From IMG/VR virus record IMGVR_UViG_3300046557_000835: a stretch of 40,157 nucleotides of DNA; one strand, 5' to 3'. The position numbers and the translations under genes were made by a program. Numbering within the stretch: the stretch's first letter is position 1; each line of letters begins with the position of its first letter. Positions 3,078-9,702 of this stretch are shown one piece after another. Source of the DNA: a virus. Its lineage: Duplodnaviria > Heunggongvirae > Uroviricota > Caudoviricetes. Below the pieces are notes generated by a model, which had not been told where the DNA came from, ran no database searches, and saw nothing but the letters and a program-made list of their open reading frames with translations.

Positions 3078-4010
3078 TTAGACGTGGAAGAAGTTCAACA
3101 CGCGCTGGCGGGCATCTTCTTTGACGCCGTGCACGCGGAAGGCTTTGTCCATGTTGGTTTGACGCAGCGCTTGGTTACGCAGGGCCGGATCGGCCAGGGC
3201 GGTCAGGGCCGACAGCAGGTAGCGGAAGTGCGCCATCTTGTTGCCCGGCAGGGTGGCATGCGGGGTGTAGCGATGCATGTTCTCGAAGCTGAACACGCCG
3301 TTCAGGTTTTCGCGGATCAGGCGCATCGTCAGGCCGAAGGTGGCTTCGAAGTCTTCAGCGCGGGTGTTGATCGCTTGTACCAGGGTGTGGTACAGGTGCG
3401 CTTGCGCTTGACCACCTTGGTCCGGCGACAGGCGCCCCGCGGACGACATCTTGGCGATGTAGTCTTTCAGTTCTTCGATGGTCAGGCGAGCGCTGGACGA
3501 GGCCGACAGCGGCAGTTGGTACGGATCGACCGGGATGGCCGGCGGCTGCACTTGACCGGTTGGGATCTCGACCGGTTCTTTTCGTGCGCCAGCCTGGAGC
3601 AGCAGGTCTTGAACCGCGGCGATGTTTGCTTGGGCGGCTTCCACATCGATTGCCGGTTTGAAGCCTTCGCTGGTGTTACTGCCGACAGCTTCTTTCACGT
3701 CAGCGTCGAATTGTTTGGCTTCTGTCTTGACCAGGTTACCATCCGCGACAGCCGCTTCCAGGATCTCGTCGGCAGCAGCATCGGTGGCGCTCAGGGCAGC
3801 AGTGTTGTAGTTCTCGACGTTCTGCGGGGTCAGGGTGATGGTCGAAGCCTCGTCCGAGGTACCGGTGCCTTCGATCACGATCTCGTTGGTCATGTCGACG
3901 GGTTGTTCCGGCGTATCGGTCGCCTTGATGTCTTCGTAGCTCACGGATTCATCCTTTGCTTGAGTTGGGGTGGAAGTTTGGAATTGCGAACGGGGGCGGT
4001 TCTTGGCCAT
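3078..4010 (-). CDS. Hypothetical protein with acidic low-complexity N-terminus and helical C-terminal domain
   Basis: 310 aa ORF with SD AGGAG upstream and codon usage like its neighbours; no motif recognised. Confidence 0.75.
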   Translation of the reverse strand: MAKNRPRSQFQTSTPTQAKDESVSYEDIKATDTPEQPVDMTNEIVIEGTGTSDEASTITLTPQNVENYNTAALSATDAAADEILEAAVADGNLVKTEAKQFDADVKEAVGSNTSEGFKPAIDVEAAQANIAAVQDLLLQAGARKEPVEIPTGQVQPPAIPVDPYQLPLSASSSARLTIEELKDYIAKMSSAGRLSPDQGGQAQAHLYHTLVQAINTRAEDFEATFGLTMRLIRENLNGVFSFENMHRYTPHATLPGNKMAHFRYLLSALTALADPALRNQALRQTNMDKAFRVHGVKEDARQRVLNFFHV

Positions 4011-7144: not shown

Positions 7145-8791
7145 ATGCAACCTAATGATCCCAACACCGACCTGATCCCAGAGGTTATGGCTGACTCGGC
7201 TCCAGTCATGGTTGACGTGCCGACCATCGAAACCGATGGCGGTGCACCGGCGGTGCCGGTGGCCGAAGACGGCATCGATGAAATCGATCTGTCGTCGGTC
7301 GTGCCTGTGCCTGCGCTGAACGAAGGCGATGATTCGCAACAGCCGGTTGCCGAAGACGCGACCCAAAGCAGCTTCCAATGGCCGGCGCCGACTCCCATCA
7401 ACAATGCCACCATCTCGTCCGAGTACGCCAAAGACATCGGCGACCAGTGGGATGACTTGGCCACCACCATCGCCCTGCCGGCCGACACCGCGGCGCGGAC
7501 GATGAACTACGGGGAAACCAACCCGCACGCGGATGCGCAGGTCGATAGCGAAGCCGGTGAGAAGTGGGCAGAAACCATTTCGGTCGGTCTGAACAACGGC
7601 TCGTTCCACGACAACCTGTTGCCCGCTGCGCGCCGTGAAGGTGCCAACTACCAGCAGAAGATCACCCCGGAAGGTGGCCGTTCGTTAGCGATCGCCGCAC
7701 CGCGGTTTGCCGACGATGAAGGTCCGCTGATGACCGGTGAGCGCGCTATGCTGCGTGTGAATGCCCTGATGGGTCGGGGCGCCATCATCCAAGTGCCACT
7801 GTGGCATTCGGGTTTCTGGATCACGCTCAAGTCCCCGGGTGAAATCGAGCTGCTGGACGCGCTGCAACACATCAGCGACAACAAGATCGAATTCGGCCGT
7901 TCGACCAACGGCTTGGCATTCGCCAACCACGTGGTGGTCAGCAACAGCGCGATCGTCGACCTGGCAATGCGCAACCTGTACGAAACCACGGTGGCGGGCT
8001 TTAACACCACCGAGAAGATTCGCGGCGCGATCAACTGCCTGGACATCCCGATGTTGGCATGGGGTCTGGCGTGCGCTGTGTATCCGAAAGGCTTCCAGTT
8101 CGAACGTGCGCTGCTCGACAAGCAAGGCGTGGCCACCACGGTAGTGCAACAACTGCTGAACGTCGGTACCTGCCAGTACACCGACCGCAACAGCCTAAAC
8201 GACTGGCAAGTCGCCCACATGTCGCAACGTGCTACCGGGTCGATGAAAGAATCGGCGCTGGCAATGTACCGTGACCACTTCACCCGCGGCAAGTCGAAGC
8301 TGGTGATGCTCGATGCTGAGATCGGCATCGAACTCAAAGTCCCGTCGGTTGACCAGTTCCTGAATGCCGGTCAACGTTGGGTCGATGAACTGGTGGTCTC
8401 GGTGTCGCAAGCGTTCGCGCAAGACATGAGCGACAAGCAGCGCAACGACATGATCTACGACCGCGCCAAGGCCACCTCGATGCGCCAGTACGTGCACTGG
8501 ATCAATGCCATCGAGATCCCACGCCTGGGTAAACGTATCGTTGACCTGCCGACCCTGGAGCTGACCATCAGTCACATGTCGGGCGACAACACGGTGCGCA
8601 ACAAGTTCTACGAAGTCGTGCAATCGTTCATCAACGACTCGATCATCTCGCTGATCGGCGTGCCGCAAGTGCACCCGGAAGAAGCGAGCCAAGTCGTGCC
8701 ACGCTTCGAGAACATCATCCCCATCGACCCGATCGCTGTTTTTTTCAGCCTCCTTTACCAAAAGATCCAACAAATCCGTCGGCGTCCGTAG
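7145..8791 (+). CDS. Conserved-type jumbo phage protein; possible tail/baseplate assembly chaperone (G-like product)
   Basis: 548 aa ORF, SD GGAG, acidic N-terminus. It ends shortly after an AVFF slippery site; function is inferred from that architecture only. Confidence 0.7.
   Translation: MQPNDPNTDLIPEVMADSAPVMVDVPTIETDGGAPAVPVAEDGIDEIDLSSVVPVPALNEGDDSQQPVAEDATQSSFQWPAPTPINNATISSEYAKDIGDQWDDLATTIALPADTAARTMNYGETNPHADAQVDSEAGEKWAETISVGLNNGSFHDNLLPAARREGANYQQKITPEGGRSLAIAAPRFADDEGPLMTGERAMLRVNALMGRGAIIQVPLWHSGFWITLKSPGEIELLDALQHISDNKIEFGRSTNGLAFANHVVVSNSAIVDLAMRNLYETTVAGFNTTEKIRGAINCLDIPMLAWGLACAVYPKGFQFERALLDKQGVATTVVQQLLNVGTCQYTDRNSLNDWQVAHMSQRATGSMKESALAMYRDHFTRGKSKLVMLDAEIGIELKVPSVDQFLNAGQRWVDELVVSVSQAFAQDMSDKQRNDMIYDRAKATSMRQYVHWINAIEIPRLGKRIVDLPTLELTISHMSGDNTVRNKFYEVVQSFINDSIISLIGVPQVHPEEASQVVPRFENIIPIDPIAVFFSLLYQKIQQIRRRP
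8740..8746 (+). other. Predicted -1 ribosomal frameshift heptamer T-TTT-TTC
   Basis: Seven Ts at 8739-8745, in the correct X-XXY-YYZ register for the 7145 ORF. A -1 shift enters the frame of the 8854-9246 ORF, which is open across the site. Confidence 0.6.
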
Positions 8792-9246
8792 ACCAGATCA
8801 ACCACGTCAGTCACCCGAAGTTCGGGGCAGAGTTCCAAGAGAACCCAACTGGCGTGGTCGAACTGTTTCTCGACGTGCTCTACCCGCTGTTCGCCCACAA
8901 AGGCAAACTCAGCGCAGTGGAAGCGACGCAGTTGCTCCACAAGGCGTATTTGATTCGTTACAACTTGGCCACCGAAGAAGAGTTGAAACTCAACCCTGCG
9001 GCGTTGGTCAAGATGCGTCCGGCCGAAGACCCGTTTCTAGGAACGATGTTAGAAGACCATTTCGAACACTTCATCGAGTTAGAAATTTACCAGTACATGC
9101 AGTGGGGGGATTACATTAACCAACCACGGCATCAGCTGGAAATGATTCGACGGGTGGCCGAGAAACGACGCAAGAAGAAAAATATCCATGAGGCTAATAC
9201 TGCGAAGGATTTGGCCAAGCTGGCCGCCGAGATGAAACCAGGTTAA
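8740..9246 (+). CDS. T-like segment, probably expressed as a ~700 aa frameshift fusion (ORF track calls 8854-9246)
   Basis: The frame is open from the slippery site (FFQPPLPKDP...HPKFGAEF...) with no start codon until a GTG at 8854 that has only a weak SD. The C-terminus has WGDYINQPRHQLEMI followed by a basic tail. Confidence 0.6.
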   Translation, partial: FFQPPLPKDPTNPSASVDQINHVSHPKFGAEFQENPTGVVELFLDVLYPLFAHKGKLSAVEATQLLHKAYLIRYNLATEEELKLNPAALVKMRPAEDPFLGTMLEDHFEHFIELEIYQYMQWGDYINQPRHQLEMIRRVAEKRRKKKNIHEANTAKDLAKLAAEMKPG

Positions 9247-9255
9247 GGAACAATC

Positions 9256-9702
9256 ATGGGAATCGAATACATTGAGCGCGGGGATATCTTTACCAGCGCA
9301 GCACAAGTGTTGGTATGCCCCACCAATGCTGGTGGTGTGATGGGTAATGGATTGGCCTATGCGTTCCGTATGAAGGTTCCCAGATTGTTCTACCAATATC
9401 GGGCGCATTGCAAAGCGCACAACCCCGATGACATGGCGCCGTTCGTGTTTGACGCGTATGAATACGTGGTCTATTGTCTGCACACTAAGAAGAAGTGGTG
9501 GCTGAATTCATCGAAGGAAATCATCCGCGATGGTCTGCTGAAACTGATTCAATGGTGTACTGACAAAGGGATCGAATCGGTGGCAATGCCTGCACTTGGC
9601 TGTGGTAAAGGAGGACTTGATTTTAACAAAGAGGTCAAGCCCCTCATCGAAGAACTCCTGAAAGAGTCGGACATGGATGTGATCGTCTATTGTTCGTGGT
9701 AG
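9256..9702 (+). CDS. Macrodomain ADP-ribose glycohydrolase, DarG/TARG1-like
   Basis: GDIF, PTNAGGVMGNGLA, HTKKKW (TK.HW-like) and AMPALGCGKGGL motifs. Confidence 0.88.
   Translation: MGIEYIERGDIFTSAAQVLVCPTNAGGVMGNGLAYAFRMKVPRLFYQYRAHCKAHNPDDMAPFVFDAYEYVVYCLHTKKKWWLNSSKEIIRDGLLKLIQWCTDKGIESVAMPALGCGKGGLDFNKEVKPLIEELLKESDMDVIVYCSW

What the first reader, a model, noticed from the sequence alone, without database searches (positions are those of the whole stretch)
8738..9246. Predicted -1 programmed frameshift fusing two late genes (lambda G/GT-like architecture in a jumbo phage)
Seen: the 548 aa ORF reads GTT TTT TTC (V-F-F) 14 codons before its stop, giving a correctly phased slippery heptamer T-TTT-TTC at 8740-8746. 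The -1 frame is that of the next ORF. It stays open from the site for 36 protein-like codons (QPPLPKDP...HVSHPKFGAEF) with no start codon before a GTG that has only a weak SD. Established: tail assembly chaperones of long-tailed phages (lambda G/GT, P2 E/E') are made as a short product plus a -1 fusion, and P2 uses a U-run. Inference: this locus makes a 548 aa protein and a ~700 aa fusion, which would identify an unannotated tail or baseplate chaperone pair away from any tape-measure gene. The QWGDYINQP...basic tail also resembles T-segments.
Basis: partly seen in the sequence, partly recalled or inferred. Interest (0 to 1): 0.8.

Follow-up and report, generated by a model that had tools for sequence, protein, structure and literature searches.

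The report
Conserved -1 frameshift in jumbo-phage gene
A core gene of nucleus-forming giant phages (the phiKZ gp77 family) ends at a run of T's where some ribosomes most likely slip back one base, so one gene gives a 548-residue and a 700-residue protein, a layout kept in every relative examined but missing from public annotations.

Summary
GTT TTT TTC (8738-8746) gives a phased heptamer T_TTT_TTC, 14 codons before the stop of a 548-aa ORF. The -1 frame is that of the next ORF and is open from the site.

Comparative evidence supports a real recoding site:
- All 39 homologous loci (16 lineages at 50% identity or less, GC 27-60%, phiKZ included) carry a phased heptamer at the same Phe-Phe.
- GC-rich genomes keep the T-run although they use TTC for Phe elsewhere.
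- No locus has a -1 stop between the site and the downstream domain.
- The conserved motif HVxxPxFG lies upstream of the first canonical start in most loci and is never wholly downstream of one; in the window it is upstream of the GTG at 8854.
- That GTG lacks the ribosome-binding site its neighbours have.

No in-frame fusion was found among 120 homologs.

ORF1 is the phiKZ gp77 homolog. Several weak but convergent lines make it a distant relative of the T4 gp26/gp51 baseplate-hub assembly chaperones. It is not a lambda G/GT family member. The added domain is helical and of unknown function.

Ribosomal slippage is favoured over transcriptional slippage but is not proven, and no stimulatory RNA was found. 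I found no paper describing the site. This scan has noted the same site before in other genomes.

The parts
7145..8791 (+). ORF1, 548 aa: phiKZ gp77 homolog (phrog_4585). Residues 1-76 are disordered; the alpha/beta core (about residues 90-548) folds well. This is the 0-frame product.
8740..8746 (+). Slippery heptamer T_TTT_TTC over codons Phe533-Phe534, the proposed -1 shift site.
   Evidence: conserved in phase in 39 of 39 loci
8747..8788 (+). 0-frame tail of 14 codons (SLLYQKIQQIRRRP). It is the last helix of the short product (model helix 529-545), is conserved as LLxQKxxxI, and is absent from the fusion.
8746..8791 (+). Dual-coding overlap: the first 15 codons of the -1 frame lie inside the 3' end of ORF1. 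No -1 stop occurs here in any locus.
8746..9246 (+). -1 frame extension, 166 codons plus stop: a Pro-rich linker, the conserved motif, then a helical domain (phrog_12109) with a long basic C-terminal helix.
8803..8826 (+). HVSHPKFG motif. It holds two of the five most conserved positions of the whole ORF2 family (H20, F26) and lies upstream of the first canonical start codon.
8854..8856 (+). GTG that gene callers take as the ORF2 start. Its ribosome-binding site is weak and the position is not conserved in relatives.

Best explanation
Programmed -1 ribosomal frameshifting. Most ribosomes that translate ORF1 read through Phe533-Phe534 and stop 14 codons later, giving the 548-aa protein with its C-terminal amphipathic helix. 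A minority slip back one base on U_UUU_UUC, with tRNA-Phe re-pairing in the A site and the P-site tRNA re-pairing on UUU. They then read QPPLPK... and make a 700-aa protein in which the last helix is replaced by a Pro-rich linker, the HVxHPxFG motif and a roughly 130-residue helical domain. ORF2 is therefore not a separate gene but the alternative C-terminus of a gp77-family protein. By distant likeness to T4 gp26/gp51, both isoforms probably act as non-virion assembly factors for the baseplate hub or tail, in a ratio set by slip efficiency. Shown: the site, its phase, its conservation, and the start-less conserved -1 ORF. Inferred: that the ribosome rather than the polymerase slips, the efficiency, and the assembly role.
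For: (1) The heptamer is conserved in phase. 39 loci in 16 lineages at 50% identity or less carry T_TTT_TTT (24), T_TTT_TTC (9), G_TTT_TTT (4) or G_GTT_TTT (2) at the same Phe-Phe, 11-19 codons before the stop.
(2) Codon choice runs against the genomic bias. In GC-rich relatives the rest of ORF1 uses TTC (L023 0 of 15 and L027 0 of 14 TTT; window 2 of 15), yet the site is TTT TTT/C preceded by a T. T4 gene 26 encodes the homologous-looking Phe-Phe as TTC TTT, so the amino acids alone do not require a T-run.
(3) No locus has a -1 stop between the site and the ORF2 domain. For the overlap alone the chance is about 1e-12 over the 16 lineage representatives. In ten loci the -1 frame opens only 3-6 codons before the site (phiKZ: 6).
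(4) The -1 segment upstream of any canonical start is under protein-level selection: H20 and F26 of HVxxPxFG are at least 90% conserved. In the window's clade no start precedes that His. In phiKZ the first start comes 85 codons after the site, and the motif lies in an annotated 219-nt 'intergenic gap'.
(5) Called ORF2 starts differ in nearly every relative, and the window's GTG lacks the RBS its neighbours have.
(6) The short-run variants are still heptamers of classes known to work. G_GU at X_XX is used in T7 gene 10 with bacterial ribosomes, and G_UU in equine arteritis virus (PMC5009743). T5 and T6 runs are poor substrates for polymerase slippage.
(7) RNA contigs of four phiKZ studies run unbroken from gp77 through the run and the 'gap' to the end of the -1 ORF, with no indel at the run.
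(8) None of 120 homologs is an in-frame fusion, which fits a need for both isoforms.
Against: There is no protein-level evidence for the fusion. No conserved stimulatory element was found: downstream MFE z-scores are unremarkable. The only recurrent features are a 4-bp hairpin 3 nt after the site in some lineages and a weak pairing of the U-run with a downstream CAAAAG tract. A homopolymer run is also what transcriptional slippage would use, and phase conservation is partly forced by the Phe-Phe codons. The RNA data are assembled contigs, which hide minority species. Some relatives (RP12) do have an ATG at the ORF1 stop, so independent initiation may add to, or in places replace, frameshifting. 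The assembly-chaperone role rests on weak remote homology.
Confidence: 0.68

Rival explanations
1. Transcriptional slippage. The phage RNA polymerase stutters on the A-run of the template and adds one U to a fraction of transcripts. Standard translation of the U8 mRNA then gives the same 700-aa fusion.
For: The site is a homopolymer (T7 in 33 of 39 loci). No ribosomal stimulator was found. Chimalliviruses transcribe with their own unusual multisubunit polymerases, whose slippage rates are unknown (established knowledge). The protein outcome and all comparative signatures apart from run length are the same as for ribosomal slippage.
Against: Six loci have runs of only T6 or T5 that still form phased heptamers. 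From my own recall, known bacterial cases need about 8-9 identical bases. Consensus RNA contigs from four phiKZ studies show U7 only, which excludes high-level editing but not low-level editing.
Confidence: 0.17
2. Two separate genes. ORF2 is translated on its own, from the GTG at 8854, from a near-cognate codon, or by reinitiation after ORF1's stop. The T-run is conserved for another reason.
For: Public records annotate two genes. RP12 has ATG overlapping the ORF1 stop and FLC9 has a start after a 75-nt gap. An ATC at 8797 precedes the motif.
Against: This does not explain the T-run kept against codon bias, or the lack of -1 stops from the run onward. Start positions are inconsistent, and most lie inside or after the conserved motif. 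The GTG and the ATC have poor SD pairing (-2.9 and -1.7 kcal/mol). RP12's ATG is absent in its closest relative, L039. phiKZ would lose 85 conserved codons.
Confidence: 0.09
3. Artefact or decay: a homopolymer sequencing error splitting one true 700-aa gene, or a recent pseudogenising indel.
For: T-runs are error-prone in some sequencing chemistries, and the two frames meet exactly at the run.
Against: The same split occurs in 39 independent assemblies and isolate genomes, including phiKZ. The 0-frame tail after the run is itself conserved and is modelled as a helix. No in-frame fusion occurs among 120 homologs. RNA contigs confirm T7 in phiKZ.
Confidence: 0.02

Closest known systems
Phage lambda G/GT (and P2 E/E+E', Mu gp41/42) tail assembly chaperone -1 frameshift
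   Same: A -1 slip near the 3' end of a morphogenesis-factor gene gives a short product and a C-terminally extended one from a start-less downstream ORF. Neither is expected in the virion. From my own recall, P2 uses a U-run heptamer. The isoform ratio is thought to be the point (PMC5009743).
   Different: No sequence or fold relationship was found. ORF1 is 548 aa, against about 140 aa for gpG. The locus is not next to a tape-measure gene: its neighbours are a gp78-like gene, a macrodomain gene, and virion RNAP subunits on the other strand. The partner bound by the added domain is unknown.
Phage T7 gene 10A/10B -1 frameshift (G_GUU_UUC)
   Same: Phe-codon U-rich heptamer close to the stop of a structural or assembly gene. 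The -1 extension is made at low level and there is no nearby classical stimulator. The G_GTT_TTT variant in loci L017 and L018 is of the same heptamer class.
   Different: T7 10B is a minor capsid protein with a 53-residue extension (my own recall). Here the extension is a conserved 166-residue domain on an unrelated protein family.
T4 gp26 and gp51 baseplate hub assembly chaperones (Pfam PF12322, phrog_150)
   Same: Best remote match for ORF1. Viral model hits annotated baseplate hub assembly protein have target TM about 0.5. phrog_150 is hit by 6 of 26 members, PF12322 by 2 of 26, and the ESM Atlas points the same way. Both families end in a Phe-Phe-x-Leu motif, and phiKZ gp77 has a CxxC upstream of it as gp26 does. 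T4 gene 26 also yields two products, by internal initiation (26'). The T4 proteins are listed as chaperones (PMC3004832).
   Different: ORF1 is more than twice as long. The window's protein itself matches no Pfam model. My profile-profile test was not significant. T4 has no slippery run at the Phe-Phe (TTC TTT) and no ORF2-like domain.

Membership tests
Programmed -1 ribosomal frameshift site (tandem slippage, X_XXY_YYZ) | Heptamer in the correct phase of the upstream ORF | tested here: met
   T_TTT_TTC at 8740-8746; a phased heptamer in 39 of 39 loci
Programmed -1 ribosomal frameshift site (tandem slippage, X_XXY_YYZ) | -1 ORF open from the site, coding, and without its own conserved start | tested here: met
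Programmed -1 ribosomal frameshift site (tandem slippage, X_XXY_YYZ) | Conservation of site and phase across diverged orthologs, against codon bias | tested here: met
Programmed -1 ribosomal frameshift site (tandem slippage, X_XXY_YYZ) | Stimulatory element (downstream hairpin or pseudoknot, or upstream SD-like sequence) | tested here: inconclusive
   No conserved stable structure and no upstream SD-like sequence seen in the window. Some known phage sites, such as T7 gene 10, also lack a nearby stimulator.
Programmed -1 ribosomal frameshift site (tandem slippage, X_XXY_YYZ) | Trans-frame protein detected | not testable with these tools
   Needs mass spectrometry, western blot or a reporter
Lambda G/GT-type tail assembly chaperone | Gene pair immediately upstream of the tape-measure gene | tested here: not met
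   The neighbours are a gp78-like ORF and a macrodomain gene. In phiKZ they are gp78 and small ORFs next to a helicase.
Lambda G/GT-type tail assembly chaperone | Sequence or fold homology to gpG-family chaperones | tested here: inconclusive
   No Pfam or PHROG chaperone hit. No PDB fold match. The absence of a match does not exclude the family.
Lambda G/GT-type tail assembly chaperone | Short product plus -1 extended product from a site near the 3' end | tested here: met
   (sequence level only)
T4 gp26/gp51 hub assembly chaperone family (PF12322) | Match to PF12322 above the gathering score | tested here: not met
   The window protein has no hit. 2 of 26 family members hit sub-threshold, best E 0.008.
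T4 gp26/gp51 hub assembly chaperone family (PF12322) | Shared fold with family members | tested here: inconclusive
   BFVD hits to annotated hub assembly proteins at E 1e-4 to 1e-2, target TM about 0.5, rmsd 7-9 A. Atlas shape TM 0.45 to a cluster in which 14% carry PF12322. Atlas features 0.89 to a cluster in which 71% carry PF12322. hhalign against a shallow gp26 profile was not significant.
T4 gp26/gp51 hub assembly chaperone family (PF12322) | Required for baseplate hub assembly and absent from the virion | not testable with these tools
   The phiKZ record carries no structural note on gp77, while its neighbours gp79 and gp80 are marked structural head proteins. This is suggestive only.
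Transcriptional slippage site | Long homopolymer run (about 8-9 or more in known bacterial cases, from my own recall) | tested here: not met
   T7 in most loci, T8 in one (L021), T6 in four and T5 in two
Transcriptional slippage site | Length heterogeneity of the run in RNA but not in DNA | tested here: inconclusive
   RNA contigs of four studies show T7 only, but contigs drop minority variants

The most novel reading that the evidence does not exclude
The gp77 family is the jumbo-phage counterpart of the T4 gp26/gp51 hub chaperones and works by the lambda G/GT logic. Many copies of the short form and a few of the frameshifted form would coat a tail or hub component, and the added helical domain would recruit the next building block. 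Ratio control by frameshifting would then be a shared principle linking two chaperone classes so far treated as unrelated. It would also give T4 gp26/gp51, whose function has been unknown for decades, a testable mechanism.
Probability: 0.25. Interest if true: 0.8.

Novelty: new member of a known kind. Interest (0 to 1): 0.62.

Why it matters
The site corrects the annotation of a gene carried by every phiKZ-like relative sampled here. In those phages a conserved 150-190-codon coding region is currently either left as an 'intergenic gap', as in phiKZ itself, or called as a small orphan gene with an arbitrary start. It adds a recoding event to a model phage family that is under intense study for its nucleus-like compartment. 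It also gives a first functional handle on gp77: a likely baseplate or tail assembly factor made in two isoforms. Finally, it offers a natural U-run frameshift site without an obvious stimulator, kept from 27% to 60% GC, for studying what sets slip efficiency in bacteria.

Tried and rejected
- DNA-level search of the region against isolate phages found nothing; only protein-level searches worked.
- hhalign of the ORF1 profile against single T4 gp26 or gp51 sequences, and against a 23-member gp26 profile, was not significant.
- The one long homolog (P0080, 671 aa) is not an in-frame fusion. Its extra length is N-terminal.
- The search for a downstream stimulator by single-sequence folding with shuffles and by RNAalifold in the window's clade found nothing convincing.
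- I considered a T4 gp26-gp25 frameshift analogue, because gene 25 is in the -1 frame of gene 26. I rejected it because the T4 Phe-Phe is TTC TTT.
- RNA-seq could be laid only as assembled contigs, so low-level U8 transcripts remain untested.
- My frame walk failed for locus L045, which I left out.
- I did not run a complex prediction, because the report does not claim that separate proteins bind.

Full report
**The observation**

The window reads GTT TTT TTC at 8738-8746 in the frame of the ORF 7145-8791 (548 aa). T_TTT_TTC at 8740-8746 is therefore a correctly phased X_XXY_YYZ heptamer, and 14 sense codons follow it before TAG. The next listed ORF (GTG 8854 to 9246) lies in the -1 frame.

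Read from 8746, that frame gives 166 codons without a stop. It holds no ATG, GTG or TTG before 8854.

The GTG has poor ribosome-binding potential: -2.9 kcal/mol at 11 nt spacing. Four neighbouring genes all start at ATG with -5.8 to -10.7 kcal/mol at 5-6 nt.

**Identity of the genes**

ORF1 is the homolog of phiKZ gp77 (PHIKZ077) and belongs to phrog_4585. tblastn finds it in 206 isolate genomes of phiKZ-like phages. Synteny with phiKZ is kept: gp80- and gp79-like genes lie on the other strand, and a gp78-like gene lies just upstream.

ORF2 belongs to phrog_12109. That profile begins about residue 10 of the -1 frame product, which is upstream of the GTG.

**Comparative test**

I collected 39 homologous loci:
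- metagenomic viral contigs at 24-84% identity;
- phiKZ and Burkholderia phage FLC9;
- Ralstonia phage RP12, which is among the viral contigs as L014/L040 and was also read from its annotated record.

They fall into 16 lineages at 50% identity or less, and the loci span 27-60% GC.

Every locus has a phased heptamer at the same Phe-Phe, 11-19 codons before the ORF1 stop. The counts are T_TTT_TTT 24, T_TTT_TTC 9, G_TTT_TTT 4 and G_GTT_TTT 2.

The T-run is kept against codon bias. In GC-rich members the rest of ORF1 uses TTC almost only: L023 has 0 of 15 TTT, L027 0 of 14, and the window 2 of 15. The two rarer heptamer classes have known working precedents: G_GU at X_XX in T7 gene 10 with bacterial ribosomes, and G_UU in equine arteritis virus (PMC5009743).

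No locus has a stop in the -1 frame between the site and the ORF2 domain. I judged this against each locus's own -1 stop density inside ORF1. For the overlap alone, the chance is about 1e-12 over the 16 lineage representatives. In ten loci the -1 frame opens only 3-6 codons before the run.

**ORF2 lacks a start of its own**

The alignment of the -1 products shows a variable Pro/Asp/Ser-rich linker, then the motif HVxxPxFG, then a helical domain. H20 and F26 of the motif are at least 90% conserved, which places them among the five best-conserved positions of the family.

In most loci the first canonical start lies inside or after this motif. In the window's own clade none precedes the His.

In phiKZ the first start comes 85 codons after the site. 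The record annotates only an 80-aa gp76.4 after a 219-nt 'gap', and that gap encodes the motif.

Gene callers place the start differently in nearly every close relative. Annotated ORF2 orthologs range from 74 to 182 aa. RP12's ATG at the ORF1 stop is absent in its closest relative, L039.

Among 120 ORF1 homologs none is an in-frame fusion. The single long one has an N-terminal extension. The 0-frame tail after the run is itself conserved (LLxQKxxxI) and is modelled as the last helix. Both endings therefore appear to be under selection.

**RNA evidence**

A phiKZ-type locus from the viral contig collection (L056) is held by RNA runs of several studies. Contigs from four of them run unbroken from gp77 through the T-run and the 'gap' to the end of the -1 ORF, with no indel at the run.

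Contigs from three of the four studies end at about 3509-3529, roughly where I place the stop of the -1 ORF. The Nanopore run among them (X1) has a poly(A) loose end at 3529.

The region therefore looks like one transcription unit whose majority RNA is unedited. Because these are contigs, a minority U8 species cannot be excluded.

**Mechanism**

I favour ribosomal -1 slippage, for three reasons:
- the phase is invariant;
- runs of only five or six T's still form recognised heptamers;
- the consensus RNA is U7.

I could not find a stimulator. Downstream folding energies are unremarkable. Covariation analysis in the window's clade shows only a weak pairing of the U-run with a CAAAAG tract.

Transcriptional slippage by the phage polymerase remains a live rival and would give the same protein. 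Independent or reinitiated translation of ORF2 does not explain the T-run or the stop-free overlap. A sequencing artefact is excluded by recurrence across assemblies.

**Function**

The ORF1 model is confident (pLDDT 78; core mostly above 85) but has no match among solved structures. Beyond its orthologs among predicted viral structures, it matches about 250-aa proteins annotated as T4-like baseplate hub assembly protein, hub subunit or hub assembly chaperone. These hits have E 1e-4 to 1e-2 and target TM about 0.5.

T4 gp26 and gp51 are paralogs in PF12322 and phrog_150. The supporting lines are:
- phrog_150 is hit by 6 of 26 ORF1-family members, best E 4e-4;
- PF12322 is the only Pfam family hit by more than one member, 2 of 26, best E 0.008;
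- the ESM Atlas gives PF12322 clusters as the leading named leads by features (0.89) and by shape (TM 0.45).

My own profile-profile test against a shallow gp26 alignment was not significant, and NCBIfam gave nothing. I therefore rate the relationship as probable, not established.

The T4 tail review lists gp26 and gp51 as hub assembly chaperones and says of gp51 that it is required for assembly but absent from the final particle (PMC3004832). In the phiKZ record gp77 carries no structural note, while its neighbours gp79 and gp80 do.

ORF2 folds as a helical domain ending in a long basic helix. It matches only its own orthologs, so what it binds is unknown. The frameshift swaps the last helix of the short form for a linker plus this domain. 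It is a replacement of the C-terminus, not a simple extension.

**Comparison with known systems**

The expression logic is that of lambda G/GT, P2 E/E+E' and T7 10A/10B. The protein is not a member of the G/GT family: it is four times larger, no homology was found, and it is not next to a tape-measure gene.

T4 gene 26 has no slippery run at its Phe-Phe (TTC TTT). It makes its second product by internal initiation (26').

**Novelty**

Full-text searches found no paper describing the site. All the annotated records I examined show either two genes or a gap.

This scan has met the same site before on other genomes and reached the same reading. I used those notes as leads. The T7 precedent I confirmed. 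The gp26/gp51 link I could support only partly.

I class the finding as a new member of a known kind: a programmed -1 frameshift in a phage assembly gene, in a family and a virus group where none is on record.

Noticed in passing
window 9256-9702: A macrodomain gene (PF01661) follows ORF2 directly in the window and in all six close relatives looked up. It has a strong RBS (AAGGAA, 5 nt spacing). Its conserved linkage to the gp77/ORF2 unit in this clade is unexplained.
   Followed up: partly
L002 about 3987-4010 (phiKZ); L056 3000-3022: In phiKZ the T-run is directly preceded by a perfect hairpin (TTGACA-TGC-TGTCAA), which together with the run looks like an intrinsic terminator inside the gene. 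RNA contigs read through it. The hairpin is not conserved in other lineages.
   Followed up: partly
L056 3509-3529: RNA contigs from three phiKZ studies end roughly where I place the stop of the -1 ORF, and the Nanopore run among them carries a poly(A) loose end at 3529. This suggests a transcript 3' end that closes the gp77/ORF2 unit.
   Followed up: no
proteins P0076, P0099, P0119: gp77 homologs at 36-40% identity are recorded under bacterial assemblies (Caballeronia arationis, Paraburkholderia adhaesiva, Paraburkholderia sp.) on contigs of 74-493 kb. These may be jumbo-phage contigs carried in bacterial genome assemblies.
   Followed up: no
L048 7803-7860 (T4), L002 3923-3940 (phiKZ): T4 gp26 ends ...CPECGK...GLKEFFELL and phiKZ gp77 has CPVCES about 25 residues before TFFTL. 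A shared C-terminal CxxC plus Phe-Phe-x-Leu pattern would support homology. The window's protein lacks the CxxC.
   Followed up: partly
L045 (IMGVR_UViG_3300011972_000001): Walking the ORF1 frame from the tblastn match start hit an early stop at 1744. Either the match begins in another frame or this copy is interrupted. I left it out of all counts.
   Followed up: no
window 8747-8800 and relatives (alignment A5): In the window's clade, nucleotide identity is near-complete for about 50 nt after the run, synonymous positions of both frames included. Dual coding would produce this, but a sequence-level signal could hide there too.
   Followed up: partly
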